Part shown: in pieces, positions 2,015-13,059 of the stretch
How the letters are laid out: the number at the start of each line of letters is the position of its first letter
How positions within the stretch are numbered: position 1 is the stretch's first letter
DNA from: a virus
Taxonomy: Duplodnaviria > Heunggongvirae > Uroviricota > Caudoviricetes
IMG/VR virus record: IMGVR_UViG_3300002835_000066
Coordinates: 1-64,000 of that record
DNA: 64,000 bases
Reading direction: 5' to 3' (one strand)
Notes under the pieces: generated by a model
Told to the model about the DNA's origin: nothing
Seen by the model: only the letters and a program-made list of their open reading frames with translations
The model's database searches: none
Program-made: the position numbers and the translations under genes

Positions 2015-2090
2015 TGGCACGGGAGGAGGGACTCGAACCCCCGGCACTCGGTTTTGGAGACCGATGCTCTACCAACTGAGCTACACCCGT
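2015..2090 (-). tRNA. tRNA-Trp (anticodon CCA). CCA encoded.
   Basis: ...GCTCAGTTGGTAGAGCATCGGTCTCCAAAACCGA...GGGGGTTCGAGTCCC...GCCA. Anticodon loop cuCCAaa, G73 discriminator. One U-U mismatch in the acceptor stem. Confidence 0.75.
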
Positions 2091-2096
2091 ACTTAA

Positions 2097-2489
2097 TTAA
2101 AAAGTGATTACGCCAGAGTCAATAACCGGATGTTCATCGTCTGTACGATCAACAATAGTGTAAGTGAACTTATAGGTTCCAAGTTCCTTTAGCATTTCTG
2201 CTACAGACTCAAGTTCAAAATCTTTGCACGAGTACAAATCAAACTTGTAATAACTTGGTTCACCTGACCAAAAATGTATTGATGAATGGCTGGTTGTAAT
2301 ACCTACCATCCCAGTTACGCCTTCATTACCCTCATCGTTACACCATACACAGATGGGATCAATTAAGACCTTCATGTCAACTGCTTCAACTAATCGATTG
2401 AACCAATCTTCAAGGAACGTAACGTACTCCGCTTGTGGAGCTTCATTTAGATATCCTGTAACTAGGATGTGCTTATTAACCTGTGCCAA
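2097..2489 (-). CDS. speD: S-adenosylmethionine decarboxylase proenzyme, small SpeH/SpeD-type
   Basis: 130 aa. Motif TTSHSSIHFWSGE matches the pyruvoyl-forming ESHxSIHTWPE cleavage motif of class 1 AdoMetDC. The size fits the small prokaryotic form. Confidence 0.6.
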   Translation of the reverse strand: MAQVNKHILVTGYLNEAPQAEYVTFLEDWFNRLVEAVDMKVLIDPICVWCNDEGNEGVTGMVGITTSHSSIHFWSGEPSYYKFDLYSCKDFELESVAEMLKELGTYKFTYTIVDRTDDEHPVIDSGVITF

Positions 2490-2569
2490 CTCATAAAATC
2501 CTTTCCAATATTAATTTTACTGTCAGATAGCGAATGATTATTTATCATTATGTGCGTAGTTTTAAAAAA

Positions 2570-2644
2570 TGGTACCTCGTGACGGGATTGAACCGCCGAC
2601 CTTATCCGTGTAAAGGATCTGCTCTACCGCTGAGCTAACGAGGC
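2570..2644 (-). tRNA. tRNA-Val (anticodon TAC)
   Basis: GCCTCGTTAGCTCAGCGGTAGAGCAGATCCTTTACACGGATAAGG...GGTTCAATCCCGTCACGAGGTACCA. Anticodon loop uuUACac. Confidence 0.8.
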
Positions 2645-2654
2645 ACGGTAAAAA

Positions 2655-2731
<77 letters not shown>

Positions 2732-2738
2732 TATATTC

Positions 2739-2814
2739 TGGTGGAGACACGGGGGTTCGAACCCCGGACCTACGGCTTGCAAAGCCGTCGCTCTACCAAC
2801 TGAGCTATATCCCC
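2739..2814 (-). tRNA. tRNA-Ala (anticodon TGC)
   Basis: GGGGATATAGCTCAGTTGGTAGAGCGACGGCTTTGCAAGCCGT...GGTTCGAACCCCCGTGTCTCCACCA. G3-U70 identity pair and A73. Confidence 0.85.
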
Positions 2815-2856
2815 ATGAAACTATTTATATCTTACTTACTCAACAAATAAAAAGAA

Positions 2857-2933
2857 TGGTGACCCTGGCAGGGCTCGAACCTGCAACCCCAAGTTTAGAA
2901 GACTCGTACTCTATCCAGTTGAGCTACAGGGCC
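2857..2933 (-). tRNA. tRNA-Arg (anticodon TCT)
   Basis: GGCCCTGTAGCTCAACTGGATAGAGTACGAGTCTTCTAAACTTGG...GGTTCGAGCCCTGCCAGGGTCACCA. Confidence 0.8.
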
Positions 2934-2991
2934 AATCTCTTAATTACTTTTGTAATATAGCAAGTATTGACCGATTTGTCAATAAGAAAGT

Positions 2992-3729
2992 TTAATTTTG
3001 GGCAGATAGAAATCTAGAAAGATTTTCTGCAATTTGCTTATGTCCCAACTCACTTGGATGAGGAGACTTTTCACATGGTTCTACCTTCATCTTGTCAATT
3101 GAACATTGCATAATATCGTTGTTATACCAGTTAAAATTAGTGTTAGAGTACCTTAGTTGTGACTCACTTAATGGATTTGTAAACCCTTCATGTATCATCG
3201 TAAACACATACTTGATACCATGTGCTTTAAAAAAGTTACCTAATGCAGATATTTGAGTGAAGAACTGCTGACCTACGGCTGCATCAGTGCTATACGCATA
3301 ATGTGTTCGGATAATATCTTCTTGTTCGGTGTCGCTAAGTTCCCTGTCTGCGCTGCGAAATATCACAACATCGTGCTTTGCAACAGCCCAATCATTAGTA
3401 TTATTGTCAAAGAATTCAAATCTACTAGGTTCCGACCATTGAATGGCTACAGTCCAATCAGACATGTCTTCGCCGGTTAATACTTTAGGAACAAAGAAGT
3501 CAAGAGTTTTTCTAACGATACGTGCATTAGAGCCGCAGCCTATGCTATGATTGTGAAATTCAGTGCAACCAAGCTTATCTGATAGATGCTTAGGCCATGT
3601 TATGTTTAGACGATGTTTGTTTATATCAGACTGATTATGTTCGTCAAGTAAAGAACCGTGTTCATCATGGAGAGTTTTAATTAACTCTCCGCCCCACGTA
3701 AACGAACATCCACTAGCAAACAACTTCAT
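2992..3729 (-). CDS. SGNH/GDSL-like hydrolase family protein, paralog 1
   Basis: 245 aa. N-terminal FASGCSFTWGG resembles GDSx block I. A later GCGSNARI block resembles the GxND block. Similar size and N-terminal motif to ORFs 4615-5364 and 14296-15051. Confidence 0.4.
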   Translation of the reverse strand: MKLFASGCSFTWGGELIKTLHDEHGSLLDEHNQSDINKHRLNITWPKHLSDKLGCTEFHNHSIGCGSNARIVRKTLDFFVPKVLTGEDMSDWTVAIQWSEPSRFEFFDNNTNDWAVAKHDVVIFRSADRELSDTEQEDIIRTHYAYSTDAAVGQQFFTQISALGNFFKAHGIKYVFTMIHEGFTNPLSESQLRYSNTNFNWYNNDIMQCSIDKMKVEPCEKSPHPSELGHKQIAENLSRFLSAQN

Positions 3730-3745
3730 GTCACGACCTTAAGAA

Positions 3746-3821
<76 letters not shown>

Positions 3822-3827
3822 GAATTT

Positions 3828-3902
3828 TGGCTCCCTAAGATGGATTCGAACCACCGACCAATTGATTAACAGTCAACTGCGCTACCGCTGCGCCATTAGG
3901 GA
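3828..3902 (-). tRNA. tRNA-Asn (anticodon GTT)
   Basis: TCCCTAATGGCGCAGCGGTAGCGCAGTTGACTGTTAATCAAT...GGTTCGAATCCATCTTAGGGAGCCA. Confidence 0.85.
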
Positions 3903-3953
3903 ATAAACTCTATAAACTATTTAATCTTGTTATAGCAGCTTGACAAATAAATG

Positions 3954-4520
3954 TCAAGCCGCTAATTGAACAATTCTACTGTGTTTGGGCACACCGCTCA
4001 ACAGATACTCCATTTGGTCAGCAAGAATGCTGCGGTTTTGGAGAATCATGTTTTCGTAGTGGTTGGGTGCGTACGGAATGTACAACAGTTCCATACGAGA
4101 TTCCTTCAAACTCTTACAACCCTTCTTTTGATTGCAAGGGATGCAAGCAGTAACAACGTTAGTCCATTCGTCAATACCACCGTGGTACCTAGGTACAATG
4201 TGGTCTCGACTTAACTTACTATGATTGCCTATTTGAACACCGCAGTATCCGCACATGTTACGGTCACGGGCAAACAGCGTCTTGTTAGTCAAGATAACTT
4301 TGTTGTGCTTTTTGAAGTTAAAACCTTCACCCTTAACAGCAATGATGCTGGGAGTTTCGATATAACTCTGCGTACCATCATCTTGATAGCCGCCTCTATA
4401 TCTAGCAATAACGTCGCCTAGAGTCCAGGCAACCAAGTTCTTTGCATGATACGAAATTGCTTCGTCGTGGGAGACCCACGTTCTTGGGATACCCGATACG
4501 TCTAAGGCTAGTACTGCCAT
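3954..4520 (-). mobile_element. free-standing HNH homing endonuclease gene inside the tRNA array
   Basis: 188 aa. CGYCG...RDHIVPRYHGG...NVVTACIPCNQKKG reads as CxxC...DHxxP...N...CxxC, the zinc-finger HNH motif. Confidence 0.75.
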
Positions 4521-4614
4521 GTTATGCTCCTTTTTTAAAAATATTTAGACTGTCTTTAATATATACACTATAATCGTACTTAACGCAACCGAAATCTATA
4601 AATATGTTGTTGTT

Positions 4615-5364
4615 CTATTTTACGGAAAACAAATTTTTATGGAAAGAAGATGTACTGAAATCTAAAAAATTATCATCAGTTAGATATGCATATACTGCAT
4701 CCGTTAAGACATGATGATTTTTTTCGTGTAGATGATTCAGTCTAAAATCATCGGGACCATATTTTGTTATAAAATCCCACAATGTGCCGTCAGAAAATTC
4801 GTTGCCACTAACTTCAATCAACGAAAAATTAGCATGTTTGGGGAAATGTTTTGCGATAGATGCTTCATCCACGTCTACACTAATTGATACCGTGTTATTA
4901 GGCAGGCTATGTAATGTATGTAATAGCATGTACCGTTGCGCCGAAATTAAATCTTGATTTTTTAGTAAAAACCAATCTTTGTAAAAATTCTTAAATCTAT
5001 TATAATGTTCATTCGATTCAGATAGGTTAGCTATCATTTGTCGCGGGGCAGCTTCAAAATACTCAGGAAACACTTTAGAAAATGTGAATGCTGCCCACAT
5101 CGGAACAAATTCTTCTGCAACAACCGGACTTCGATAGCTGTCTGTTAAAACAAATATGATCTGATCGTTTGGATCATAATCGTCCCCGGTTAAATATTCA
5201 AAAAATTTTAAGGTTGAATACTCAAACGAAGTACCACGCTCACCGTATGTTTTATATTCTATTCCTAACCTATCGGCTAGCATTTTAAACCAAGTCGAAT
5301 GAGTGGCATTTTTGGGGTCGCTGGGCCACTCAGCAGTAAAACTATCACCGAATAATACTAACAT
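4615..5364 (-). CDS. SGNH/GDSL-like hydrolase family protein, paralog 2
   Basis: 249 aa. N-terminus MLVLFGDSFTAEW is the GDSx block I motif, with the Ser in the expected place. Confidence 0.45.
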   Translation of the reverse strand: MLVLFGDSFTAEWPSDPKNATHSTWFKMLADRLGIEYKTYGERGTSFEYSTLKFFEYLTGDDYDPNDQIIFVLTDSYRSPVVAEEFVPMWAAFTFSKVFPEYFEAAPRQMIANLSESNEHYNRFKNFYKDWFLLKNQDLISAQRYMLLHTLHSLPNNTVSISVDVDEASIAKHFPKHANFSLIEVSGNEFSDGTLWDFITKYGPDDFRLNHLHEKNHHVLTDAVYAYLTDDNFLDFSTSSFHKNLFSVK

Positions 5365-5374
5365 CTGTAATCCT

Positions 5375-6004
5375 TCACTCGTACCAGTCCAAGTTTTTCA
5401 ATTGCTCCAGTATAGATATTTTATCAGACGGCCTAAACAGGTGATAGATTATCCACTGCTTAGTATCTTTTAATCTTATTGGTCCATATGATTCATGGAG
5501 ATGTATTTTTCTGCCAGGTCTAGACCACCATTGCCCGTCATCATCTATATATGACGTTAGGTAATTACTAGGATCATTGACTTTTACATATCTAGCAACG
5601 TTTTCGTAATTGTATTCATTGAATGATAAAAAGCATCCAGCCGCACCTAATGCGCTTACTTCATGATAGATCATATCCTTGATGTCACCGTGAGTATTTC
5701 CGCAATTTTTTCCAGGAATTGTGTAACTACGAACACCGCAGCAAATCATATTATCTATCTCGGATAGATAATATCCTTGACCGCATATAATTTGCTCATT
5801 TTCTTTGCAAATTACATAACCATTCAATGCACCGTCAAATCTTTTTTCTTTGTATAGCAGGTATAGAAAAGTATGAGGTTTGTTTTCCCAATCATTGTAC
5901 TCCATGTTTCTTGCTCCATCCCTAGAATCCAAATCAGCGTTTTTACAAAACTCTGCCAATTCCTCTAGAGGATAACTACTATCAATTTTAAAGAGTTTGC
6001 GCAT
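5375..6004 (-). CDS. hypothetical protein (209 aa)
   Basis: ORF only. Cys-rich (ICGQG...CCG...CGNTHG). Confidence 0.45.
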   Translation of the reverse strand: MRKLFKIDSSYPLEELAEFCKNADLDSRDGARNMEYNDWENKPHTFLYLLYKEKRFDGALNGYVICKENEQIICGQGYYLSEIDNMICCGVRSYTIPGKNCGNTHGDIKDMIYHEVSALGAAGCFLSFNEYNYENVARYVKVNDPSNYLTSYIDDDGQWWSRPGRKIHLHESYGPIRLKDTKQWIIYHLFRPSDKISILEQLKNLDWYE

Positions 6005-6641
6005 TTATGTTCAATCTTGCTCGTGCGGCTTCTAAATTTTCGCTGAATAATTCATCATAGTTTTCAGCGAGAAGAAATTTAGCTTGTTTACCGTTTTGAT
6101 ATGCAGTCAACATCAACATCACATTGCGTTTGGTAACACCATACTTCAACAAGATAGCAAAACTTACTAAAAACCAACCAATAGATTTTGTTTGTGCAAA
6201 CGAAAACATCGCAAGCCTCATTTCTCCGATATCATTAGCAGGATAACCGGTAAGTGTATGCCATGTGTCGTGCGTGTCTCTGTATCTTCTTGCCATCCAG
6301 TTGTATGGATGTTTAGCCTCAATCCAATCATTATTTTTATTTTTTCTTCTACTTATTTTAAGCAGAATCTCTTGGTTGGGAAATAAATTATGACATTCTT
6401 TACCAACAGAACTGTTTGGCCTTTCAGCTAATGTGCCAAAGTAACTAGAAATTTCTTCTGAATCATATGCCGTTCTACCACCATAAGAAGTTTGAAGTAA
6501 TTTAGAGTATGTCCACTTAAGAGAAGGCGAATTTGTTGAGTGCAGTATTTCAAAAACAAAAATTGTATTTGTAGGATTTTTGCGCAACTTTTTAAATACT
6601 TTGTATGTCCTAAGTAAGTCAATTTTATATTTTAGATGCAT
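5988..6641 (-). CDS. Coq4-family protein (ubiquinone biosynthesis COQ4-like). HDxxH(x)11E metal motif present.
   Basis: 217 aa. DTHDTWHTLTGYPANDIGE matches the Coq4 signature HDxxHx11E exactly. Confidence 0.5.
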   Translation of the reverse strand: MHLKYKIDLLRTYKVFKKLRKNPTNTIFVFEILHSTNSPSLKWTYSKLLQTSYGGRTAYDSEEISSYFGTLAERPNSSVGKECHNLFPNQEILLKISRRKNKNNDWIEAKHPYNWMARRYRDTHDTWHTLTGYPANDIGEMRLAMFSFAQTKSIGWFLVSFAILLKYGVTKRNVMLMLTAYQNGKQAKFLLAENYDELFSENLEAARARLNINAQTL

Positions 6642-7383
6642 TTACCACAGTCCTAAGTTTCATATGAATCTTCTTTACTTCGGTAGAATTTGCTAGAAAC
6701 GTATTGAAATTGCCGTTTGGTTCTAAATCGTACATGTAAAGATGTTCATGTGTAAAAAGATATTTTAAAGTTGAGTTATAATATAATTCATAGGATGCTA
6801 CTATATCTTCCGCTCCTAAGAATGTTTCATCAAATCGAAACGATTCGGCACATTGTCTAGAATACAATAAAATTCTATTCCACGGAAGATGGTTTACCAT
6901 AAACTTTCCCAATGCAATCAAATTAAGTGCTTCTCTACCGTCTATTCCTGCGAATGAGTAGATATCAGAACTTTCAAAAAACTCTTGTACCATATACTGT
7001 TTACCTTGATATGTCATAGGATTGTTAGTAAGACCAAGAATATCTATATTAGGATTGTTTTGTATTATACTATGAATCTTATCGATGGCATTTGGAGTAA
7101 GATAATCATCACCATCTATTTGCGTGAGGTAATCATATTCTGTATTGAGAAAGAAATCGAGAACAGAGTTTTTACCCATTGCGGGAGTACCGTTAGATAT
7201 GGTAACCTCATATCTAATACCATATTTTTTACAAGTGTGTTGAGCAGACGTTGCGTATTGTGTATCCGCAGTGTTTATGATCACAACAATATCACTTAGT
7301 GGTGTTTGTTGTAATACGGATTTGATGCAGCGTTCAAGCTTGTCAATTTTATCTGATGTTAATATGGCGACTAGCGTATTCAT
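6625..7383 (-). CDS. glycosyltransferase family 2
   Basis: The true start is probably the internal Met (MNTLVAILTSDK..., cat at 7381-7383), because the longer ORF would overlap tRNA-Leu(GAG). IVVIINTAD and QIDGDDY (DxD) motifs are typical of GT-A/GT2. Confidence 0.65.
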   Translation of the reverse strand: MNTLVAILTSDKIDKLERCIKSVLQQTPLSDIVVIINTADTQYATSAQHTCKKYGIRYEVTISNGTPAMGKNSVLDFFLNTEYDYLTQIDGDDYLTPNAIDKIHSIIQNNPNIDILGLTNNPMTYQGKQYMVQEFFESSDIYSFAGIDGREALNLIALGKFMVNHLPWNRILLYSRQCAESFRFDETFLGAEDIVASYELYYNSTLKYLFTHEHLYMYDLEPNGNFNTFLANSTEVKKIHMKLRTVVNASKI

Positions 7384-7406
7384 ATCTATATTTACTATAT
7401 AATTTT

Positions 7407-7492
7407 TGGTGCCCAAGAAAAGACTCGAACTTTCACGGGCTTTCGCCCACAACGACCTCAACGTTGCGTGTCTACCATTCCACCACCTGGGC
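7407..7492 (-). tRNA. tRNA-Leu (anticodon GAG). Type II.
   Basis: GCCCAGGTGGTGGAATGGTAGACACGCAACGTTGAGGTCGTTG, long variable arm, GAAAGTTCGAGTCTTTTCTTGGGCACCA. Confidence 0.8.
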
Positions 7493-7496
7493 ATAT

Positions 7497-7590
7497 TGGT
7501 ACTCCCTACAGGATTCGAACCTGTGACGCTCTCTAATCTGGAGACGATGCTGGATATAAGCCAGGTGTTTTACCGCTAAACTAAGGGAGT
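7497..7590 (-). tRNA. atypical type II tRNA-like gene (94 nt, 24-nt variable region). Anticodon by standard numbering is TAT. Identity unclear.
   Basis: ACTCCCTTAGTTTAGCGGTAAAACACCTGGCTTATATCCAGCATCGTCTCCAGATTAGAGAGCGTCACAGGTTCGAATCCTGTAGGGAGTACCA. Perfect acceptor, D and T arms. Anticodon stem has 4 bp plus one mismatch. Confidence 0.45.
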
Positions 7591-7591
7591 A

Positions 7592-8260
7592 TTAGATTTT
7601 AAATGTGAATGCAAAAGATACGGTGTTGTCTTCACGCCAATCTTTTGTGTACAAGTCTTGAATTGAGAAACTAGTTTTCTCACTTAACTTGTATTTGATT
7701 TCAGCTTTGTTCTGAATGAAGGTTCTAGAACCTTCTTCAATCATAAACTTATTTGAAACTGAAACTGTTTTACTAAGGTTGTGACTAATCCATACACTTT
7801 CACGAACTACTACATCGCTGTATCCACCTGTACCGTGCTTGAAGCCAACGCTAAGTTCATTTGATATTTTAGTTTTATCAGTCTTTACGAGTCTGAAACC
7901 GTGACCGATGCTATATACTGCTTGATCTTCTGAAAATGTTCTTGGATCGTGTCTATATCTTGCACCAACTTGTAGATAGTGCTTAGGATGAATGTCCTGA
8001 TTGACTTTAGCAAATGCGTTAATCTGCTCTCTAGAAGTTACGCCGTTAGCACTCTTATAAAGAATATCACTTTCAAATGAGTATTCTCTAGGGCCGGTGT
8101 CAGTAACATGCTTGAAGGCTCCAGTAAGAACAATGTTATCATCATTGATAACTGTTCCACCTAATGAACCTGTTGTTTCTTTCTGAACCTGTGCATATGC
8201 AGGGAAAGAAAATAATAATGCTGCTGATAGTATAAGTGTTCTAAACATAGTAATCTCCAA
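7592..8260 (-). CDS. secreted outer-membrane beta-barrel-like protein (DUF481/YdiY-like)
   Basis: Signal peptide (MFRTLILSAALLFSFPAYAQ). Alternating amphipathic beta-strand pattern throughout. Ends in an aromatic residue (FAFTFKI), as OMP barrels do. Confidence 0.45.
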   Translation of the reverse strand: MEITMFRTLILSAALLFSFPAYAQVQKETTGSLGGTVINDDNIVLTGAFKHVTDTGPREYSFESDILYKSANGVTSREQINAFAKVNQDIHPKHYLQVGARYRHDPRTFSEDQAVYSIGHGFRLVKTDKTKISNELSVGFKHGTGGYSDVVVRESVWISHNLSKTVSVSNKFMIEEGSRTFIQNKAEIKYKLSEKTSFSIQDLYTKDWREDNTVSFAFTFKI

Positions 8261-8280
8261 ACTACTATTTAGTAATTTGG

Positions 8281-8351
8281 TGCTGATAAGAAGAATTGAA
8301 CTCCTGTCAACGGGTTACGAATCCGTAGTAATACCACTATACTATATCAGC
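8281..8351 (-). tRNA. putative tRNA-Thr (anticodon CGT). No encoded CCA and weak D and anticodon stems, so it may be degenerate.
   Basis: GCTGATATAGTATAGTGGTATTACTACGGATTCGTAACCCGTTGACAGGAGTTCAATTCTTCTTATCAGCA. Perfect 7-bp acceptor stem and good T arm. Confidence 0.4.
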
Positions 8352-8356
8352 AAGAA

Positions 8357-8926
8357 GTGACGCTGGGCTACCCTGTAAAATTAAAAAAAATATCTTTATT
8401 GATAAATAATATCATGAACAACATTATTACACCCTTAACCAACGTAGACTTTACTGCATGTATTGAAGAACTCAAGTCACACTTGGAACTTCGTATAATA
8501 GCCGTGCCGTCAGCAGAAGCTTGGACTGATATTTATTACTTCATGGTAACAGGGGCAGAGTTACCCATAACAGCTAATGTTCTTGCGGGACTAAATTTAT
8601 CAATAATAAATGTATTATACCTCGAAACGCAAGGAGGAAATGAATACTATCAGGGAACAACGCCTAATAGTTGTATTGTACTTCCTTTAGAAGAAATAGG
8701 GTCAACTGTCAGTGCTTATTCTGCGCCGTTAAATTCACCTAGACTACCTGACTATCCAAACGGTTATCATCCAGAAGATTGTACCTTAATTGAAAGTCAT
8801 TCAGCAGATGAACCGGTATTTCTTGGTTGTGCAATTGAAAATGCTGAACTTGTATATTCTTTCCAAGTTCCGAAAGACAAAATTTACAAGTCAATTGTTA
8901 TTTTCTTCAGTGAAGACACATTATAA
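8357..8926 (+). CDS. hypothetical protein (plus strand, 189 aa)
   Basis: ORF only. The start may be the internal Met at 8414. Confidence 0.35.
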   Translation: MTLGYPVKLKKISLLINNIMNNIITPLTNVDFTACIEELKSHLELRIIAVPSAEAWTDIYYFMVTGAELPITANVLAGLNLSIINVLYLETQGGNEYYQGTTPNSCIVLPLEEIGSTVSAYSAPLNSPRLPDYPNGYHPEDCTLIESHSADEPVFLGCAIENAELVYSFQVPKDKIYKSIVIFFSEDTL

Positions 8927-8949
8927 GTAATTCGTCTTAGTCAACTCAC

Positions 8950-9035
8950 TGGTGCCCCGAGAGGGACTTGAACCCCCACGCCCTAAGGGCAAAAGATTTT
9001 GAATCTTCCGCGTCTACCGATTCCACCATCGGGGC
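8950..9035 (-). tRNA. tRNA-Leu (anticodon CAA). Type II.
   Basis: GCCCCGATGGTGGAATCGGTAGACGCGGAAGATTCAAAATCTTTT, variable arm, GGGGGTTCAAGTCCCTCTCGGGGCACCA. Confidence 0.85.
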
Positions 9036-9223
9036 AGTAAATTGATCCGGTTTGTTTACATGTACGATAGCTGGCGGATATCATGATCCCCTATGTAACA
9101 TGGTTCAGCAGCCGGAACTGCTTAGTAGTGTCGGTTCAGCAGTTCAGGTACTTGTTTATAGACCCTCATAGTGTGCCTTGAAGCATCGTTCTAGACCGAT
9201 GACTTCTTCCGATTTCTGAAATT

Positions 9224-9309
9224 TGGTGCGGATGAAGGGACTCGAACCCCCACACCATTACGATACCAGTACCTAAAACTGGGGCGTCTACCAATTCCGC
9301 CACATCCGC
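9224..9309 (-). tRNA. tRNA-Leu (anticodon TAG). Type II.
   Basis: GCGGATGTGGCGGAATTGGTAGACGCCCCAGTTTTAGGTACTGG, variable arm, GGGGGTTCGAGTCCCTTCATCCGCACCA. Confidence 0.85.
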
Positions 9310-9314
9310 AATCT

Positions 9315-9842
9315 TTATAACCACCAAAGCAAACTGTTAGGTAAGTCTTGTGGTCTAATCGTATACCATATAGGCAACGTATATCTTAATCCATTACTAA
9401 CTTGTGTAACACCATGCTCAAGTTTATGACCATTGTATGCTACAACTCTTCCGGGCTTAGGTTGAACTTCAACTTTTTCTCCGTTAGACCTAGTAATAAA
9501 AGTTTGTCCCCCATCAAAATTATCATTTAGATAGAGAACACTTGTGCATAATCCCCATTCACCTGCTTGCATATCACGATGAGCCATATGCTCATTTTGT
9601 CTGCATTCAATGTGGGCACGTTGCACCATTAAATTCTCAGGTACATGTTTCATTATGAGTGAAACTTTCTCTCTAATGAAATCATCTACCGGTTTGCGTG
9701 TATAATGAGGGACAATCGCTTTGAACGGATAGTTATATCCGTGATCGGTTTCTAGCAGAGAACTTGTGTAGTAGGCAATTAAGCTATCACAGTCCTCAAT
9801 GCTCAACACATCATCAAGTATTGTTACTTCATCATCAAACAT
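9315..9842 (-). CDS. 2OG-Fe(II) oxygenase superfamily protein (prolyl 4-hydroxylase-like)
   Basis: 175 aa. An HxD...H arrangement (HMAHRDMQ ... YNGHKLEHGV) and overall resemblance to the small P4Hc-type oxygenases of marine phages. Confidence 0.55.
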   Translation of the reverse strand: MFDDEVTILDDVLSIEDCDSLIAYYTSSLLETDHGYNYPFKAIVPHYTRKPVDDFIREKVSLIMKHVPENLMVQRAHIECRQNEHMAHRDMQAGEWGLCTSVLYLNDNFDGGQTFITRSNGEKVEVQPKPGRVVAYNGHKLEHGVTQVSNGLRYTLPIWYTIRPQDLPNSLLWWL

Positions 9843-9988
9843 AATGTATTTACTCGCCGTAACTAGTGTCTCAAATTTAGTTACCGATACTAACTCAATA
9901 GTACTGCTACGGACATCAGGTACACTCCTGTTTGGTTTGAGAATGAAACAGGGTCACATATGGTCACCGTACACACACGAGTAAAATT

Positions 9989-10064
9989 TGGTGCTCCCAG
10001 ACGGGTTCGAACCGCCGACACCCTGATCTTCAATCAGGTGCTCTACCAACTGAGCTACAGGAGC
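9989..10064 (-). tRNA. tRNA-Phe (anticodon GAA)
   Basis: GCTCCTGTAGCTCAGTTGGTAGAGCACCTGATTGAAGATCAGG...GGTTCGAACCCGTCTGGGAGCACCA. Confidence 0.85.
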
Positions 10065-10071
10065 ATTTAAA

Positions 10072-10148
10072 TGGCGATCTGTACGGGACTTGAACCCGTG
10101 ACCTTTGGCGTGACAGGCCAACGCTCTAACCAACTGAGCTAACAGACC
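10072..10148 (-). tRNA. tRNA-Asp (anticodon GTC)
   Basis: GGTCTGTTAGCTCAGTTGGTTAGAGCGTTGGCCTGTCACGCCAA...GGTTCAAGTCCCGTACAGATCGCCA. Confidence 0.85.
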
Positions 10149-10155
10149 AATGAAT

Positions 10156-10503
10156 TTATGTTGTTTTATTGTTCTTATGCCACTGTCCATAAAAACAGTG
10201 TAGCATTTCGTGACCTACAAATTCAGGCTGATACTCAACTTTGGGATCAACCATATGTATCGTACATGTATCAAACGGTGGCTTAAGTTCACTAAACGCT
10301 ATGACATCTTTAGATGCAACATCTGCTCTATTACCTAGTACTTTCTGTAAATCAGCTTGTGATTTATAAGTGACAATTTTAATTTGCACTGTAGATTTTT
10401 CATATTGCTTTTCACCAAACCTATATCCATCGGCACCTTTCTGAGGCGCGGGATTACAACTGGTTAACAATAACAGTGCTACTAAAGATACTTTTTTAAA
10501 CAT
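10156..10503 (-). CDS. small lipoprotein with an HExxH zinc-metallopeptidase-like motif
   Basis: 115 aa. Lipobox LLLTSC. VGHEMLHCFYGQWH contains HExxH. Confidence 0.45.
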   Translation of the reverse strand: MFKKVSLVALLLLTSCNPAPQKGADGYRFGEKQYEKSTVQIKIVTYKSQADLQKVLGNRADVASKDVIAFSELKPPFDTCTIHMVDPKVEYQPEFVGHEMLHCFYGQWHKNNKTT

Positions 10504-10529
10504 AGAATAATTCCTCCTATGCTATTTAT

Positions 10530-10604
10530 TGGTAGCCCGAACGGGTTCCGACCCCGCTTCTCTGCCTTGAAAGGGCAGTGTCCTAGCCACTAGACGACCG
10601 GGCC
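10530..10604 (-). tRNA. tRNA-Glu (anticodon TTC)
   Basis: GGCCCGGTCGTCTAGTGGCTAGGACACTGCCCTTTCAAGGCAG...GTCGGAACCCGTTCGGGCTACCA. The T-loop has G54 (GTCGGAA). Confidence 0.75.
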
Positions 10605-10610
10605 ATATTT

Positions 10611-10686
10611 TGGTGGAGCCTACGGGGATTGAACCCGTGACCTTCTGTCTGCCAGACAGATGCTCTCCCAGCTGAGCTAAAGCCCC
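10611..10686 (-). tRNA. tRNA-Ala (anticodon GGC)
   Basis: GGGGCTTTAGCTCAGCTGGGAGAGCATCTGTCTGGCAGACAGA...GGTTCAATCCCCGTAGGCTCCACCA. G3-U70 and A73 Ala identity elements. Confidence 0.8.
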
Positions 10687-10695
10687 AAAATTTTA

Positions 10696-12054
10696 TTATT
10701 TGTATAGCCAACCAAGCTCAGGAAACGTCTTCATGAAATCGGTTCCTCTGACTCTATCCATATTAGAATATTCTCGCATATGCTTCAAATGGTCTTCTGT
10801 AGGTTGAACAAAAAATTCCATATCCTGCTGATTCATTTTTCGCAGTTCTTTTATTTTGTTGATTCCTTCGTTGAGCATTTCAGTTTTTACTACATAATAC
10901 TCTGTGTTAGCAATAATAGTATCGCAATACCAAACTTGAAACTCGTCCAATGATAGTTCAACCATTTCCCAATGTTCTTGTGGCATGTTAATAATACTAA
11001 GATGATTTGGATTTCTTAACAAATTACAAAATAGGAAATATTCAAAAATTGCGTTTTTGTCCTGTGCCATAGAAAACTGATACGCTTGCTTATCTATAAT
11101 TTCTTGCATCATTTCTTTCAAGCGATGAACATTGAGAGAACTTATCACCGGCGAATATACTAGCAGGTGAGTCATTTCATCCTCGTTGCGTAGTTGCTCA
11201 AATGACTCTTGAATCTTCTTAAGATTTTCTGATATAGTTTCCCAATCACCGGGCCAGCGTATGTAATTGAATCTGTCGTGTACTTCGTCTACGCTTGCTA
11301 TTACAACAACAGACTTAAACTGTTTCCAGTAGTCTAGTATATGTTTATCTTTATAGCGAAGTGTGCTGCAATTAGAGGAGTATCTTAATTCTACCTCTTT
11401 ACATCTGTTATTTTCTATTAGTCTATCAAGCGTGTACCAGTGATATTCTGATAACAGTGGCTCGCCGCCTGCAAAGTATATAGTTTCAACACTTTCTATA
11501 TTATCATCTATCAACTTATATGCTAGAGTTTTATCCTGTGGCTCAATAAATTTTGTTCCTACAATCGGATAACCTAACTTGTTCATCAAATCAAACCAAC
11601 TAGAACTTAAATCATGATTGCAAGTAATACATGCTTGATTGCATTTATTAGTGAACCTAAAATCAAGATATTTTAGTTTATTAGTTTTCAACTCTCCTGA
11701 CGGGAGAAGTTTATCCATGTACTCATCATAGTTTTTAGAATAGTTTGCATTGGCTATTGTTCTAGCACTAGACTTACTGAACTTTTCTGTGTCATAACAA
11801 AAAGAACAAGCGGGATTTTTCTCCCCTTGAACCATATTCTTTCTAAATTCTTTATACCGTTCTCCGTTCCACACTGAGTTCCAGTCAGAAACTTCATTGA
11901 TGTTTCCTAAAGATTCTTTTGACATATCGCCTACACAACAGGGCATAACATTGCCGTTCGGGGAGACATAAGTGTGTAGAAGACCTAACATACAGAATGT
12001 TGGATTAGAATTTAAATTATGCTCTTTAGTCATACACGAGTATTTATTCAGCAT
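10696..12054 (-). CDS. radical SAM enzyme with an N-terminal SPASM/twitch-like Cys-rich domain (domain order reversed)
   Basis: Start placed at the internal Met (MLNKYSC..., cat at 12052-12054), because the longer ORF overlaps two tRNA-Pro genes. Residues 20-90 read CMLG...NGNVMPCC...GN...W...NPACSFC, a SPASM/twitch-like pattern. The radical-SAM CxxxCxxC box FTNKCNQACITCN follows. A GGEP-like FAGGEPLL SAM-binding motif is also present. Confidence 0.6.
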   Translation of the reverse strand: MLNKYSCMTKEHNLNSNPTFCMLGLLHTYVSPNGNVMPCCVGDMSKESLGNINEVSDWNSVWNGERYKEFRKNMVQGEKNPACSFCYDTEKFSKSSARTIANANYSKNYDEYMDKLLPSGELKTNKLKYLDFRFTNKCNQACITCNHDLSSSWFDLMNKLGYPIVGTKFIEPQDKTLAYKLIDDNIESVETIYFAGGEPLLSEYHWYTLDRLIENNRCKEVELRYSSNCSTLRYKDKHILDYWKQFKSVVVIASVDEVHDRFNYIRWPGDWETISENLKKIQESFEQLRNEDEMTHLLVYSPVISSLNVHRLKEMMQEIIDKQAYQFSMAQDKNAIFEYFLFCNLLRNPNHLSIINMPQEHWEMVELSLDEFQVWYCDTIIANTEYYVVKTEMLNEGINKIKELRKMNQQDMEFFVQPTEDHLKHMREYSNMDRVRGTDFMKTFPELGWLYK

Positions 12055-12073
12055 ATGAGGGTACTCTATAAAC

Positions 12074-12152
12074 TGGTCGGGAATGTAGGATTCGAACCTA
12101 CGATCTCCTGGCCCCAAACCAGGCGGATTAAACCAGACTTTCCTAATTCCCG
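12074..12152 (-). tRNA. tRNA-Pro (anticodon TGG), second copy with a divergent D-arm
   Basis: CGGGAATTAGGAAAGTCTGGTTTAATCCGCCTGGTTTGGGGCCAGGAGATCGTAGGTTCGAATCCTACATTCCCGACCA. Acceptor and T arm are identical to the copy at 2655-2731. Confidence 0.6.
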
Positions 12153-12158
12153 TTGAAT

Positions 12159-12235
12159 TGGTCGGGGTAGCCGGATTTGAACCGACGACCACTTGTCCCC
12201 CAGACAAGTGCGCTACCAGGCTGCGCTATACCCCG
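12159..12235 (-). tRNA. tRNA-Pro (anticodon GGG)
   Basis: CGGGGTATAGCGCAGCCTGGTAGCGCACTTGTCTGGGGGACAAG...GGTTCAAATCCGGCTACCCCGACCA. Confidence 0.85.
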
Positions 12236-12242
12236 TTGGGTT

Positions 12243-12330
12243 TGGTGGAGTCGGTGAGATTCGAACTCACGGTACCTTTCGGTACGCTACCTTTCCAAGA
12301 TAGTCTAATCGGCCACTCTAGCACGACTCC
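12243..12330 (-). tRNA. tRNA-Ser (anticodon GGA). Type II.
   Basis: GGAGTCGTGCTAGAGTGGCCGATTAGACTATCTTGGAAAGGTAG, long variable arm, GTGAGTTCGAATCTCACCGACTCCACCA. Confidence 0.8.
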
Positions 12331-12468
12331 TTGAAATGGCGCGCCCGCTTTTTTTCTATACTGGGGCTACTTTCGGAAGGTAGTCCATGTATGCGGACGC
12401 ATAAGATTGGAGGGCAGCGGTAACGGTTGTTCGTCACTATTGCAGTGGGTATCACTCGCCGCCATAAG

Positions 12469-12660
12469 TTAAAGTCCGAGAAAATGCATTACTAGCTTGA
12501 AGGGCCAGACATGTTCCCAGAGAAAGTGTTCTAATGGATAGCTGATAGTTACGCCAATCCAAAATCTATAATCAGTAATCAAATTTGAACACGAATTCAT
12601 ACACCGAACTAACAGTCCGGTCTTCTTATCTTCGTGATAATGTGGTTCATGTTCTTTCAT
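12469..12660 (-). CDS. possible small ORF (63 aa, His-rich N-terminus MKEHEPHYHEDKK) in the 400-bp gap inside the tRNA array
   Basis: The ORF-track entry 12469..12855 overlaps tRNA genes. Only the part below 12729 can be coding. No motif support. Confidence 0.2.
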   Translation of the reverse strand: MKEHEPHYHEDKKTGLLVRCMNSCSNLITDYRFWIGVTISYPLEHFLWEHVWPFKLVMHFLGL

Positions 12661-12728
12661 ACAATGTCTATCTCTTTGTGCATATACTAGTATACTATAT
12701 ATCAAGCAGCTTGTCAACCTAGTAATAA

Positions 12729-12803
12729 TGGTACACCCTACTGGGTTTGAACCAGTGACCTTTTCCATGTCAAGGAAATGCTCTACCGCTGAGCTAAGGG
12801 TGC
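12729..12803 (-). tRNA. tRNA-Val (anticodon GAC)
   Basis: GCACCCTTAGCTCAGCGGTAGAGCATTTCCTTGACATGGAAA...GGTTCAAACCCAGTAGGGTGTACCA. Confidence 0.85.
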
Positions 12804-12810
12804 ATGAAAC

Positions 12811-12888
12811 TGGGGTGAAAGACGGGACTCGAACCCGCGACATTCGGTACCACAAACCGACGCTCTAACCAACTGAGCTACAATCACC
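12811..12888 (-). tRNA. tRNA-His (anticodon GTG) with an encoded G-1 opposite C73
   Basis: G-GTGATTGTAGCTCAGTTGGTTAGAGCGTCGGTTTGTGGTACCGA...GGTTCGAGTCCCGTCTTTCACCCCA. The extra 5' G and C73 are the His hallmark. Two U-U mismatches in the acceptor stem. Confidence 0.75.
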
Positions 12889-12894
12889 ATAAAC

Positions 12895-12968
12895 TGGCAT
12901 ACGCTGTAGGAGTCGAACCCACGCTAACTGGGTTGGAACCAGTCGTGCTACCGTAACACTTAGCGTAC
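12895..12968 (-). tRNA. tRNA-Trp (anticodon CCA), second and divergent copy
   Basis: GTACGCTAAGTGTTACGGTAGCACGACTGGTTCCAACCCAGT...GGTTCGACTCCTACAGCGTATGCCA. G73. Confidence 0.6.
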
Positions 12969-12975
12969 ATGAAAT

Positions 12976-13052
12976 TGGTGCCCGCGGAAGGATTCGAACC
13001 TCCGACCCTCAGATTCGTAATCTGATGCTCTATCCAGCTGAGCTACGCGGGC
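12976..13052 (-). tRNA. tRNA-Arg (anticodon ACG)
   Basis: GCCCGCGTAGCTCAGCTGGATAGAGCATCAGATTACGAATCTGA...GGTTCGAATCCTCCGCGGGCACCA. Confidence 0.85.
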
Positions 13053-13059
13053 ATTAACT

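What the first reader, a model, noticed from the sequence alone, without database searches (positions are those of the whole stretch)
7497..7590. Atypical 94-nt type II tRNA-like gene whose anticodon does not match any long-arm tRNA family
The acceptor stem (7 perfect bp plus ACCA), the D arm and the T arm are canonical, and the variable region is 24 nt (a TCTC/GAGA hairpin). With standard numbering the anticodon loop is CUUAUAU, so the anticodon would be UAU. That would be an Ile/AUA reader, but Ile tRNAs never have long variable arms, and the anticodon stem has a C-C mismatch. The gene could be a decoding oddity, a suppressor-like tRNA (UUA sits one register away in the loop) or a structured tRNA-like regulatory RNA.
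Basis: seen in the sequence. Interest (0 to 1): 0.5.

Follow-up and report, generated by a model that had tools for sequence, protein, structure and literature searches.

The report
Phage isoleucine tRNA with two anticodon-like arms
The odd 94-base gene is a real phage tRNA that reads the rare isoleucine codon AUA, and its extra arm is a conserved hairpin displaying GAU, the ordinary isoleucine anticodon, which probably lets the host's charging enzyme accept it.

Summary
Window 7497-7590 (minus strand) encodes a 94-nt tRNA with anticodon UAU, a C·C mismatch at 27-43 and a 24-nt variable region (ARAGORN; Rfam tRNA 60.3 bits).

It belongs to a large family found almost only in phages. I collected 187 genes (138 distinct sequences). 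Cultured examples are Lactobacillus, Vibrio and Stenotrophomonas phages.

Three searches keyed on different parts of the molecule gave the same link. Every long-arm relative has anticodon UAU, and nearly every phage tRNA-Ile(UAU) recovered has the arm.

The arm does not look like a class II variable arm:
- Its stem covaries.
- It carries a 7-nt loop, Y-A-G-A-U-N-N, with GAU at the anticodon positions.
- A is usual at position "38".
- C-G is the third pair from the loop in 92%.

These match the E. coli IleRS determinants G34, A35, U36, A38 and C29-G41. Deleting the UAU hairpin in silico makes ARAGORN call tRNA-Ile(GAU) in 54 of 70 sequences; Leu/Ser/Tyr controls give at most 1%.

AUA sites in this phage's genes align with Ile, not Leu. 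That argues against a nematode-type Leu tRNA, and the loop register argues against a suppressor.

Best explanation, inferred and not shown: the UAU arm decodes AUA, and the GAU arm supplies isoleucine identity that bacterial IleRS reads poorly from UAU. I found no published description.

The parts
7497..7590 (-). Whole tRNA gene: 94 nt, tRNA-Ile(UAU) with an extra fifth arm. The 3' CCA is encoded.
   Evidence: ARAGORN. Rfam RF00005 60.3 bits. Sequence read.
7584..7590 (-). Acceptor stem, 5' strand (ACUCCCU). It pairs with 7501-7507 (AGGGAGU).
   Evidence: Seven Watson-Crick pairs. All 7 pairs show changes on both sides across the family.
7567..7581 (-). D arm (GUUU AGCGGUA AAAC): 4-bp stem with a 7-nt loop, the class I type rather than the class II type.
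   Evidence: G15 pairs with C48, and this pair covaries across the family (AU 28, GC 10, GU 2).
7549..7565 (-). Anticodon arm CCUGG-CUUAUAU-CCAGC. The anticodon UAU is at 7556-7558. There is a C.C mismatch at 27-43.
   Evidence: UAU is invariant in the family. The 27-43 pair is C.C in 67 and G.U in 33 of 138 sequences.
7527..7546 (-). Second, anticodon-arm-like hairpin: CG-UCUC / CAGAUUA / GAGA-(G)-CG. The loop is at 7534-7540 and GAU at 7536-7538. There is a bulged G on the 3' strand.
   Evidence: RNAalifold predicts this helix independently. All 5 pairs covary. The loop is Y-A-G-A-U-N-N in 70/70 and 138/138 sequences. The third pair from the loop is C-G in 64/70 and 127/138.
7508..7524 (-). 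T arm: ACAGG UUCGAAU CCUGU.
   Evidence: Four of five pairs covary.
7497..7500 (-). Discriminator A73 plus the encoded CCA.
   Evidence: A at 73 is nearly invariant in alignment A1.
7407..7492 (-). Context only: tRNA-Leu(GAG), 4 nt downstream on the same strand, part of the 28-tRNA array at 697-15272.
7592..8260 (-). Context only: a DUF481 (outer-membrane-protein-like) ORF that ends 1 nt upstream of the tRNA. The spacing suggests co-transcription and a Gram-negative host.

Best explanation
This is a functional, phage-encoded tRNA-Ile that reads the isoleucine codon AUA with an unmodified-type UAU anticodon. It supplements the host's scarce AUA decoder: AUA makes up 25% of Ile codons in this window.

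Its fifth arm is not a class II variable arm. It is a conserved imitation of the anticodon arm of the major isoleucine tRNA. It has a 5-6 bp stem with one bulged purine and a 7-nt loop with G-A-U at the anticodon positions. A sits at position '38', and C-G forms the '29-41' pair.

Proposed mechanism: bacterial IleRS recognises G34 (or lysidine), A35, U36, A38 and C29-G41, and charges a UAU anticodon very poorly. The GAU arm would present these determinants to the host IleRS. The tRNA would then be isoleucylated in any host, without TilS and without an adapted IleRS. The UAU arm, with proper U33 and A37, does the decoding on the ribosome.

The mimic loop has A at '33', and U at '37' in most copies. 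That should stop it acting as an anticodon.

Both arms leave the same junction and are about the same length, and the 27-43 pair of the UAU arm is usually weak. The GAU arm may therefore take the anticodon-arm position, stacked under the D stem, during charging.

Shown here:
- tRNA status;
- family-wide conservation and covariation;
- the exclusive link between UAU and the GAU arm;
- restriction almost entirely to phage sequences;
- AUA read as Ile.

Inferred:
- recognition of the second arm by IleRS;
- the conformational exchange between the two arms.
For: **tRNA status.** ARAGORN and Rfam both call it. Cultured-phage homologues also pass the Rfam threshold at 47.8-62.7 bits.

**Family size and sampling.**
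- The anticodon-arm pattern found 72 viral loci; 40 of the 41 distinct tRNAs are long.
- The D-arm pattern does not involve the anticodon. Of 123 tRNAs, all 24 long ones are Ile(UAU), and every other isoacceptor is short.
- The second-arm/T-arm pattern also does not involve the anticodon. All 81 tRNAs it recovered are Ile(UAU).
- Overall, Ile(tat) genes are 187 long and 11 short; Ile(gat) genes are 0 long of 79.

**Restriction to phages.** Among 185,579 species genomes there are only 3 copies, all on MAG contigs that carry other tRNA genes (2-11 per stretch) and may be misbinned phage DNA.

**Structure.** 93.5% of cells are paired, against 66% in shuffled controls. All helices covary, including the extra arm and the 15-48 pair. 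RNAalifold finds the extra helix on its own.

**Mimicry of the tRNA-Ile(GAU) anticodon arm.**
- The loop is CAGAUUA or CAGAUAA in most copies. Phage tRNA-Ile(GAU) loops are CUGAUAA or UUGAUAA.
- C-G is the third pair from the loop in 92%. It is 9.8% at 29-41 in all phage tRNAs and 51% in phage tRNA-Ile(GAU).
- A at '38' is 86-93% in the mimic loop but about 13-17% in the true UAU loop.
- After deleting the UAU hairpin plus 2 nt, ARAGORN calls tRNA-Ile(gat) in 54/70. In 230 Leu/Ser/Tyr controls the same-family call is at most 1%.
- AGAU occurs in the variable arm of 4 of 230 Leu/Ser/Tyr tRNAs.

**AUA means Ile.** There are 139 AUA sites in window ORFs aligned to relatives, with subject ATA codons excluded. 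Aligned residues are I 0.29, V 0.21, L 0.14. The log-likelihood is best for Ile: -24 for Val, -61 for Leu, -86 for Met.

**Literature.**
- E. coli IleRS charges a UAU tRNA 360-fold worse than the lysidine form (PMC3575796).
- The IleRS determinants listed in the review PMC9976931 include A73 and the anticodon, C29-G41, and t6A37 as a strong determinant.
- G34, A35, U36 and A38 as individual determinants come from my memory of Nureki et al. 1994.

**No phage partner.** No phage protein is consistently encoded within +/-5 kb in 200 loci. The best is an HNH endonuclease in 31.
Against: - No aminoacylation, expression or structural data exist. IleRS contact with the second arm is inference only.
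- Class I synthetases bind with the variable region facing solvent (textbook knowledge, from memory). The mimic can therefore only be read if the two arms exchange position, which is unproven.
- Position '37' of the mimic loop is U in most members, whereas t6A37 is a strong determinant for bacterial IleRS.
- The mimic stem carries a bulge that real anticodon stems lack.
- Lactobacillus plantarum has its own tRNA-Ile(UAU), and lactic-acid-bacterial IleRS is reported to recognise it (paper titles cited in PMC9976931). Yet its phages LpeD and Lpa804 keep the arm, so need for the arm is not obvious in every host.
- Eleven short phage tRNA-Ile(UAU) genes exist without the arm.
Confidence: 0.45

Rival explanations
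1. It is an ordinary AUA-reading tRNA-Ile that host IleRS charges through the UAU arm and A73. The extra arm then has another job. Options:
- tuning decoding so that UAU does not misread AUG;
- blocking host U34-modifying enzymes;
- shielding the tRNA from host tRNA-cleaving defence nucleases;
- stabilising the fold.
For: - AUA behaves as Ile.
- A UAU tRNA misreads AUG on E. coli ribosomes (PMC3575796), so there is a second problem the arm could solve.
- The 27-43 pair is weak in about 79% of members. A 2026 paper links unpaired 27-43 to altered wobble (PMC13092985).
- Phages of L. plantarum keep the arm even though UAU recognition by lactic-acid-bacterial IleRS is reported (paper title cited in PMC9976931).
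Against: None of these roles explains four features together:
- the loop is always G-A-U at the anticodon positions of a 7-nt loop;
- A38 and the C-G third pair are conserved while neighbouring pairs covary;
- what remains after deleting the UAU hairpin is a complete tRNA-Ile(GAU) cloverleaf.
Confidence: 0.3
2. The GAU arm is a decoy. It binds a host factor that normally recognises the anticodon arm of tRNA-Ile(GAU), such as an anticodon nuclease or toxin, a T-box leader, or IleRS itself. This would help the phage independently of charging this tRNA.
For: - The loop and stem mimic tRNA-Ile(GAU).
- A at '33' could make the loop non-cleavable or non-decoding.
- Phage tRNAs with altered anticodon loops occur in the same clusters. 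For example, Achelous tRNA-Ile(GAU) has C33.
Against: - It does not explain why the decoy is always fused to a UAU tRNA and never to another tRNA or free-standing.
- No tRNA-Ile-specific nuclease is known to me.
- T-boxes are absent from the Gram-negative hosts (Vibrio, Stenotrophomonas).
Confidence: 0.1
3. It is a two-headed decoder. Either arm can stack under the D stem and enter the ribosomal A site, so one tRNA reads AUA through UAU and AUC/AUU through GAU.
For: - After removal of the UAU hairpin the rest is a canonical tRNA-Ile(GAU) cloverleaf in 54/70.
- The two arms are of similar size.
- The window's 28 tRNAs include no separate tRNA-Ile(GAU).
Against: - The GAU loop has A at '33' in all members and U at '37' in most. 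Decoding loops need U33 and a purine at 37 (general knowledge).
- Achelous and DLP6 carry a separate normal tRNA-Ile(GAU) in the same cluster.
- The window may simply not contain the whole tRNA array.
Confidence: 0.05
4. It is a mischarging tRNA like the nematode nev-tRNA-Ile(UAU). The long arm plus A73 would make it a LeuRS substrate, so AUA would be partly read as Leu.
For: - Nematode long-arm tRNA-Ile(UAU) is charged with Leu in vitro (PMC3333845, PMC4300185).
- LeuRS ignores the anticodon (PMC11028032 abstract), and A73 is present.
Against: - AUA sites fit Ile far better than Leu (delta lnL -61).
- The body is not Leu-like: it has a 4-bp D stem with a 7-nt D loop, and the extra arm has a 7-nt loop.
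- The arm's conserved sequence is unnecessary for LeuRS.
- Low-level ambiguity cannot be excluded by the codon test.
Confidence: 0.05
5. It is a degenerate or non-functional tRNA gene, or a tRNA-like regulatory element, or a stop-codon suppressor read in a shifted register (UUA).
For: The architecture is unusual, the anticodon stem has a mismatch, and the single-sequence fold energy is unremarkable.
Against: - 138 distinct sequences in very different phages keep all five helices through compensatory changes, along with the UAU anticodon, U33, A37 and (in most) an encoded CCA.
- The UUA register would put C at 33 and U at 37.
Confidence: 0.02

Closest known systems
Bacterial tRNA-Ile2 with an unmodified UAU anticodon (Mycoplasma mobile; Lactobacillus plantarum; Bacillus subtilis tilS-deletion suppressor)
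   Same: It has the same anticodon and presumably the same job: reading AUA as Ile without lysidine. It faces the same two problems, IleRS recognition of U34 and AUG misreading (PMC3575796, PMC3919564).
   Different: Those tRNAs are ordinary class I molecules of about 75 nt, and the problem is solved on the protein side (IleRS Arg865 in M. mobile, plus a special ribosome). Here the tRNA carries a fifth arm with GAU, occurs almost only in phage sequences, and spans hosts from Lactobacillus to Vibrio and Stenotrophomonas.
Nematode nev-tRNA-Ile(UAU) (Hamashima et al. 2012, PMC3333845)
   Same: It has a UAU anticodon combined with a long extra arm, an isotype that normally has none.
   Different: nev-tRNAs are eukaryotic and are charged with Leu. 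Here the body is class I-like, the extra arm has a conserved 7-nt GAU loop, and AUA sites behave as Ile.
allo-tRNAs (Mukai et al. 2017, PMC5389517)
   Same: They are non-canonical long-arm tRNAs from bacteria and phages found in metagenomes, and UAU is one of their predominant anticodons.
   Different: allo-tRNAs have an 8/4 or 9/3 acceptor/T architecture, G73 or U73, and serine identity. This family is 7/5 with A73 and has a sequence-conserved extra loop.
Class II tRNAs (Leu, Ser, Tyr in bacteria)
   Same: A base-paired extra arm lies between the anticodon arm and the T arm. ARAGORN and Rfam treat this arm as a long variable region.
   Different: - The anticodon family is wrong.
- The D arm is class I type.
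- The extra loop is 7 nt with an invariant AGAU, which occurs in only 4 of 230 Leu/Ser/Tyr controls.
- Deleting the anticodon hairpin leaves a valid same-family tRNA here but not in class II controls.
Anticodon-arm mimicry read by a synthetase (E. coli thrS mRNA operator bound by ThrRS; valine-accepting tRNA-like structures of plant viruses). Recalled from memory, not tested here.
   Same: The principle is the same: an RNA hairpin that imitates a cognate anticodon arm is recognised by the matching aminoacyl-tRNA synthetase.
   Different: Those mimics sit in mRNAs or viral genomes and serve regulation or 3'-end charging. Here the mimic would sit inside a working tRNA next to its real, different anticodon.

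Membership tests
tRNA (Rfam RF00005) | Cloverleaf with acceptor, D, anticodon and T arms, scoring above the curated threshold. | tested here: met
   60.3 bits against a gathering score of 29, with model positions 1-71 all matched. ARAGORN also calls it.
tRNA (Rfam RF00005) | Tertiary-fold signatures: U8, A14, G18G19, the T-loop UUCGA, and the R15-Y48 Levitt pair. | tested here: met
   All are present in the sequence. The 15-48 pair covaries as AU 28, GC 10, GU 2.
AUA-decoding tRNA-Ile with UAU anticodon | U34-A35-U36 in a 7-nt loop with U33 and a purine at 37. | tested here: met
   The loop is CUUAUAU. UAU is kept in all 138 distinct family members.
AUA-decoding tRNA-Ile with UAU anticodon | AUA codons of the genome mean isoleucine. 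| tested here: met
   139 AUA sites fit Ile best (delta lnL -24 for Val, -61 for Leu). Control codons were assigned correctly.
AUA-decoding tRNA-Ile with UAU anticodon | Charged with isoleucine by IleRS. | not testable with these tools
   A73, C4-G69 and U12-A23 are present in the window copy. No biochemical data exist.
Class II (long variable arm) tRNA-Leu/Ser/Tyr | Anticodon of Leu, Ser or Tyr. | tested here: not met
   The anticodon is UAU. No alternative register gives a Leu, Ser or Tyr anticodon with U33 and R37.
Class II (long variable arm) tRNA-Leu/Ser/Tyr | A variable arm that is a plain spacer hairpin and cannot replace the anticodon arm. | tested here: not met
   Here the arm has a 7-nt GAU loop. 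Hairpin deletion leaves tRNA-Ile(gat) in 54/70, against at most 1% same-family calls in 230 class II controls.
nev-tRNA-like mischarged long-arm tRNA | The codon matching the anticodon is (partly) translated as Leu. | tested here: not met
   The Leu model is 61 log-likelihood units worse than Ile at AUA sites. Low-level ambiguity is not excluded.
allo-tRNA | 8/4 or 9/3 acceptor/T-stem architecture with G73 or U73. | tested here: not met
   The architecture is 7/5 with A73.
Suppressor tRNA / tRNA-Sec | An anticodon complementary to a stop codon in the canonical register, or a match to the Sec-type structure. | tested here: not met
   UUA lies out of register. There is no tRNA-Sec hit at E<=10.
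IleRS anticodon-arm determinants (E. coli set: G34, A35, U36, t6A37, A38, C29-G41) carried by the second arm | G-A-U at loop positions 3-5, A at position 7, and C-G as the third pair from the loop. | tested here: met
   GAU is present in 138/138. A is at position 7 in 60/70 (129/138). C-G is the third pair in 64/70 (127/138). Background C29-G41 is 9.8%.
IleRS anticodon-arm determinants (E. coli set: G34, A35, U36, t6A37, A38, C29-G41) carried by the second arm | A37 that can be modified to t6A. | tested here: not met
   Loop position 6 is U in 48/70 and A in only 15/70.
IleRS anticodon-arm determinants (E. coli set: G34, A35, U36, t6A37, A38, C29-G41) carried by the second arm | Physical recognition of the arm by IleRS. 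| not testable with these tools
   This needs aminoacylation kinetics, footprinting or a structure.

The most novel reading that the evidence does not exclude
This is a new tRNA architecture: a five-arm tRNA with two anticodon-type arms that divide the work. The GAU arm is read by the host isoleucyl-tRNA synthetase, possibly by swapping into the anticodon-arm position through the weak 27-43 hinge. The UAU arm is read by the ribosome. The identity signal and the decoding triplet would therefore be physically separated within one tRNA. Phages would use this to decode AUA in any host without lysidine synthetase or an adapted IleRS.
Probability: 0.35. Interest if true: 0.9.

Novelty: new variant of a known kind. 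Interest (0 to 1): 0.7.

Why it matters
For most synthetases, IleRS among them, the anticodon doubles as an identity signal. That ties what a tRNA reads to what it carries.

If phages have uncoupled the two by adding a surrogate anticodon arm, three things follow:
- It would be a new natural way to rewire tRNA identity.
- It would explain how phages decode AUA independently of host TilS and IleRS.
- It would offer a ready-made design for orthogonal or anticodon-independent tRNAs in synthetic biology.

The family is abundant in viral metagenomes. It is also present in culturable systems (Vibrio phage Achelous and its relatives, Lactobacillus phages LpeD, Lpa804, ENFP1 and 3-521, and Stenotrophomonas phage DLP6), so the hypothesis can be tested directly.

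For annotation, these genes are currently labelled plain 'tRNA-Ile' or left unannotated.

Tried and rejected
- **Near-identity search.** Searching window 7000-8400 against 50,697 phage records found only a 31-nt T-arm match, so there is no close cultured relative. The NrdA protein is at most 60% identical to any cultured phage.
- **Single-sequence folding.** It gave the cloverleaf, but z = -0.83 is not informative.
- **Suppressor register (UUA).** Rejected on U33/A37 and on the family-wide invariance of UAU.
- **tRNA-Sec or another Rfam family.** Nothing at E<=10 apart from chance hits far below threshold.
- **allo-tRNA.** Rejected: the molecule is 7/5 with A73.
- **Leu-charged nev-type tRNA.** Disfavoured by the AUA codon test.
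- **Intron or spliced insertion.** Bacterial tRNA introns are group I and far larger, and there is no bulge-helix-bulge motif. This was not pursued.
- **Phage-encoded partner protein.** All-against-all clustering of ORFs within +/-5 kb in 200 loci found nothing in more than 31 loci. The top clusters are an HNH endonuclease, an RNaseH-like protein and a NUMOD3 homing endonuclease.
- **Pairing of the loop with the T loop or the anticodon loop.** Considered by eye; I saw no covariation, so I dropped it.
- **Literature.** Eight full-text searches found nematode nev-tRNAs, allo-tRNAs and M. mobile tRNA-Ile(UAU), but no description of this phage family. The library covers open-access papers only, so absence is not proof.
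- **Model A versus model B.** Which arm stacks on the D stem cannot be decided by secondary-structure tools, because both models share the same base pairs.
Full report
**1. The observation**

The feature lies on the minus strand at 7497-7590. Read 5'->3', the RNA is ACUCCCU-UA-GUUU-AGCGGUA-AAAC-A-CCUGG-CUUAUAU-CCAGC-AU-CGUCUC-CAGAUUA-GAGA(G)CG-UC-ACAGG-UUCGAAU-CCUGU-AGGGAGU-A-CCA.

- seven perfect acceptor pairs and ACCA;
- canonical D and T arms;
- anticodon loop CUUAUAU, giving UAU with U33 and A37;
- a C.C mismatch at 27-43;
- a 24-nt variable region with a UCUC/GAGA hairpin.

ARAGORN calls tRNA-Ile(tat) at exactly these coordinates. It is one of 28 tRNA genes, all on the minus strand, between 697 and 15272. 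Rfam's tRNA model scores 60.3 bits against a threshold of 29, treating the arm as a 20-nt insertion. No tRNA-Sec or other family matches. The folding energy of the single sequence is unremarkable (z = -0.83), so the case rests on comparison with relatives.

**2. It belongs to a large family found almost only in phages**

The window has no close cultured relative. Its NrdA protein is at most 60% identical to cultured phages, yet it has at least 599 relatives at 82-99% identity in viral metagenome contigs. A sensitive BLAST with the tRNA found homologous long tRNA-Ile(UAU) genes in Lactobacillus phages ENFP1 and LpeD.

Three collection scans, each keyed on a different part of the molecule, gave the same picture:
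- **(a) Anticodon arm.** The pattern CACCYGGYTTATAYCCRGCAT found 72 viral loci. Of the 41 distinct tRNAs, 40 are 91-96 nt and one is short.
- **(b) D arm.** The pattern TAGTTTARYGGTAAAAC says nothing about anticodon or extra arm. It found 123 tRNAs of many isotypes. All 24 long ones are Ile(UAU), every other isoacceptor is short, and only 2 Ile(UAU) are short.
- **(c) Second arm plus T loop.** The pattern CAGATTAGNGN10GTTCRA says nothing about the anticodon. All 81 tRNAs it recovered are Ile(UAU).

Across the window and the 398 loci then held (2,811 tRNA genes):
- 187 tRNA-Ile(UAU) genes are long and 11 are short;
- the long ones comprise 138 distinct sequences;
- none of 79 tRNA-Ile(GAU) genes is long.

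Among Ile(UAU) genes picked up only incidentally, 6 are armed and 3 are not. In one genome for each of 185,579 bacterial and archaeal species, scan (a) found only three armed copies. All three are on MAG contigs that carry other tRNA genes and may be misbinned phage DNA.

Cultured carriers:
- Lactobacillus phages ENFP1, LpeD, Lpa804 and 3-521 (Herelleviridae);
- 38 Vibrio phage records, including the T5-like Thalassavirus Achelous, and V6Aob;
- Stenotrophomonas phage DLP6.

Where annotated, they are labelled simply 'tRNA-Ile'. All pass the Rfam tRNA threshold.

**3. The structure is real**

I aligned 42 diverse members (A1).
- 93.5% of pair cells are standard pairs, against 65.9% in shuffles and 37-50% in slid controls.
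- 25 of 27 pairs change on both sides.
- All five pairs of the extra helix covary.
- The 15-48 Levitt pair switches between A-U (28) and G-C (10).

RNAalifold predicts the extra helix independently. The molecule therefore keeps a normal L-shape core. The 27-43 pair of the UAU arm is C.C or G.U in about three quarters of members.

**4. The extra arm is not a class II variable arm**

In all 70 distinct sequences from scans (a) and (b), neither of which specified the arm, the hairpin has a loop of usually 7 nt reading Y-A-G-A-U-N-N:
- CAGAUUA in 45;
- CAGAUAA in 12;
- the rest UAGAUGG and similar variants.

GAU therefore occupies loop positions 3-5, exactly where an anticodon sits, and GAU is the anticodon of the major tRNA-Ile. 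Phage tRNA-Ile(GAU) loops in the same loci are CUGAUAA or UUGAUAA. The Vibrio-phage version (CAGAUAA) differs from the canonical loop only at position 33.

Further matches to the Ile anticodon arm:
- The third pair from the loop is C-G in 64/70 (127/138 overall), while its neighbours covary freely.
- C29-G41 is found in only 9.8% of all phage tRNAs here but in 51% of phage tRNA-Ile(GAU).
- A at loop position 7 ('38') is 86-93% in the extra loop but only 13-17% in the true UAU loop.

The review PMC9976931 lists as E. coli IleRS determinants A73 and the anticodon, C29-G41, and t6A37 as a strong determinant. G34, A35, U36 and A38 as individual determinants I recall from Nureki et al. 1994, which that review cites.

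An operational test supports the same reading. After deleting the UAU hairpin plus 2 nt in silico, ARAGORN calls the remainder a normal tRNA-Ile(gat) in 54 of 70 sequences. The same operation on 230 Leu/Ser/Tyr class II tRNAs leaves a same-family tRNA in at most 1%. AGAU occurs in the variable arm of only 4 of those 230.

The molecule can therefore be described equally well in two ways: as tRNA-Ile(UAU) plus a GAU arm, or as tRNA-Ile(GAU) with a UAU hairpin inserted after position 26. The base pairs are identical either way. Only the 3D stacking differs.

**5. What AUA means**

AUA makes up 247 of 998 Ile-box codons in the window's ORFs. I aligned the ORFs by tblastn to relatives' DNA and discarded aligned subject codons that were themselves ATA.
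- 139 AUA sites align with I 0.29, V 0.21, L 0.14.
- AUU/AUC sites give I 0.52, V 0.17, L 0.10.
- Leu sites give L 0.62, I 0.08.

A likelihood comparison over all 20 amino acids puts Ile first, with Val at -24, Leu at -61 and Met at -86. Control codons treated the same way were assigned correctly. The one exception was ATG, because excluding the only Met codon leaves no Met to align. This argues against a nematode-type Leu-charged tRNA (PMC3333845).

**6. Mechanism**

Two published facts frame the problem (PMC3575796). E. coli IleRS charges a UAU-anticodon tRNA-Ile 360-fold less efficiently than the lysidine form. A UAU tRNA also cannot tell AUA from AUG on E. coli ribosomes. Cells solved the first problem on the protein side, with Arg865 in M. 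mobile IleRS.

A phage that wants a TilS-independent AUA reader usable in any host has to solve it on the RNA side. The conserved GAU arm carries most of the anticodon-arm determinants that the true UAU arm lacks. It is found on UAU tRNAs and nowhere else. No phage protein is consistently encoded nearby: the best is an HNH endonuclease in 31 of 200 loci. That points to a universal host factor as its reader.

I therefore propose that the GAU arm is a surrogate identity element for host IleRS, and that the UAU arm decodes. A at '33' (invariant) and U at '37' (the majority) should keep the mimic from working as an anticodon.

The weak point is geometry. Class I synthetases leave the variable region facing solvent (textbook knowledge, from memory). 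Reading the mimic would therefore require the GAU arm to take the anticodon-arm position. The equal arm lengths, the shared junction and the weak 27-43 pair make this conceivable, but nothing here shows it.

Other caveats:
- U rather than A at '37' in most members;
- the bulge in the mimic stem;
- retention of the arm in phages of L. plantarum, where lactic-acid-bacterial IleRS is reported to recognise UAU (paper titles cited);
- the existence of a few unarmed phage tRNA-Ile(UAU) genes.

**7. Comparison with the known, and novelty**

The gene is a member of tRNA (met) and of AUA-reading tRNA-Ile(UAU) (met as far as sequence and codon evidence go; charging is untested). It is not a member of the following:
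- class II Leu/Ser/Tyr tRNAs;
- allo-tRNAs, which are 8/4 or 9/3 with G73/U73 (PMC5389517);
- nev-tRNAs;
- tRNA-Sec;
- suppressor tRNAs.

The closest functional analogy is synthetase recognition of anticodon-arm mimics, such as the thrS operator (from memory).

Eight full-text searches found no description of this phage family. The library is limited to open-access papers. I rate the finding a new variant of a known kind: a previously unremarked, widespread five-arm tRNA-Ile.

**8. Verdict**

| Claim | Confidence |
|---|---|
| The observation | confirmed |
| Functional AUA/Ile tRNA of a conserved phage family | about 0.85 |
| The extra arm is an IleRS identity mimic | about 0.45 |
| Interest | 0.7 |

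Noticed in passing
L006 5801-5889; L007 307-394; L055 11224-11308 (viral contigs that also carry the two-arm tRNA-Ile): These are 85-89-nt long-arm tRNAs with anticodon CCA (Trp), a Ser-like D arm and discriminator G73. They look like class II, possibly SerRS-type, tRNAs aimed at UGG or UGA.
   Followed up: no
L036 6448-6533; L041 1804-1889; L032 7524-7608; L193 1335-1418; L107 1336-1423; L162 3847-3934: More non-canonical long-arm tRNAs occur in phage clusters: Lys(CUU) and Lys(UUU) with U73, and Met(CAU), 84-88 nt. Their extra loops are short and do not imitate an anticodon loop.
   Followed up: no
L116 8584-8669 and 10351-10436; L188 2061-2146; L195 536-621: These are 86-nt tRNA-like genes that ARAGORN calls Lys(ttt). 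Their D arm resembles that of the ENFP1-type Ile tRNA, and they contain UAGAUAC and CAGAUG motifs. They may be divergent or degenerate relatives of the two-arm family.
   Followed up: no
L222 3904-3979 (Vibrio phage Achelous): The ordinary tRNA-Ile(GAU) next to the two-arm tRNA has C rather than U at position 33 (loop CCGAUAA).
   Followed up: no
L002 4256-4327 (Lactobacillus phage LpeD): ARAGORN reports a tRNA with an 8-nt anticodon loop and a four-base anticodon (tttg). The two-arm tRNA-Ile in this genome is not annotated in GenBank.
   Followed up: no
window 697-15272: 28 tRNA genes, all on the minus strand, are interleaved with small ORFs. These include an HNH endonuclease (3954-4520), a Coq4-like protein (5988-6641), a family-2 glycosyltransferase (6625-7494), a DUF481 outer-membrane-type protein (7592-8260) and a 2OG-Fe(II) oxygenase (9315-9842).
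   Followed up: partly
window 6625-7494: The longest reading of the glycosyltransferase ORF runs through tRNA-Leu(GAG) at 7407-7492. The Pfam match starts at residue 42, so the real start codon is probably downstream of the tRNA.
   Followed up: no
window 12074-12152: A 79-nt tRNA-Pro(UGG) with the anticodon at position 37 sits beside a second tRNA-Pro(UGG) of normal size at 2655-2731. It is slightly oversized and I did not examine it.
   Followed up: no
window 48647-58222 and 40000-44000: There is a 3,191-aa ORF of unknown function. Separately, GC content rises locally to 0.47 over paralogous virion or tail-fibre-like genes at 38582-46403.
   Followed up: no
L224-L303: The window's phage lineage is very abundant in viral metagenomes. 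At least 599 contigs matched the NrdA peptide patterns, and the 80 best carry NrdA at 82-99% identity. The closest cultured phages (Xanthomonas, Ralstonia, Stenotrophomonas myophages) reach only 54-60%.
   Followed up: partly
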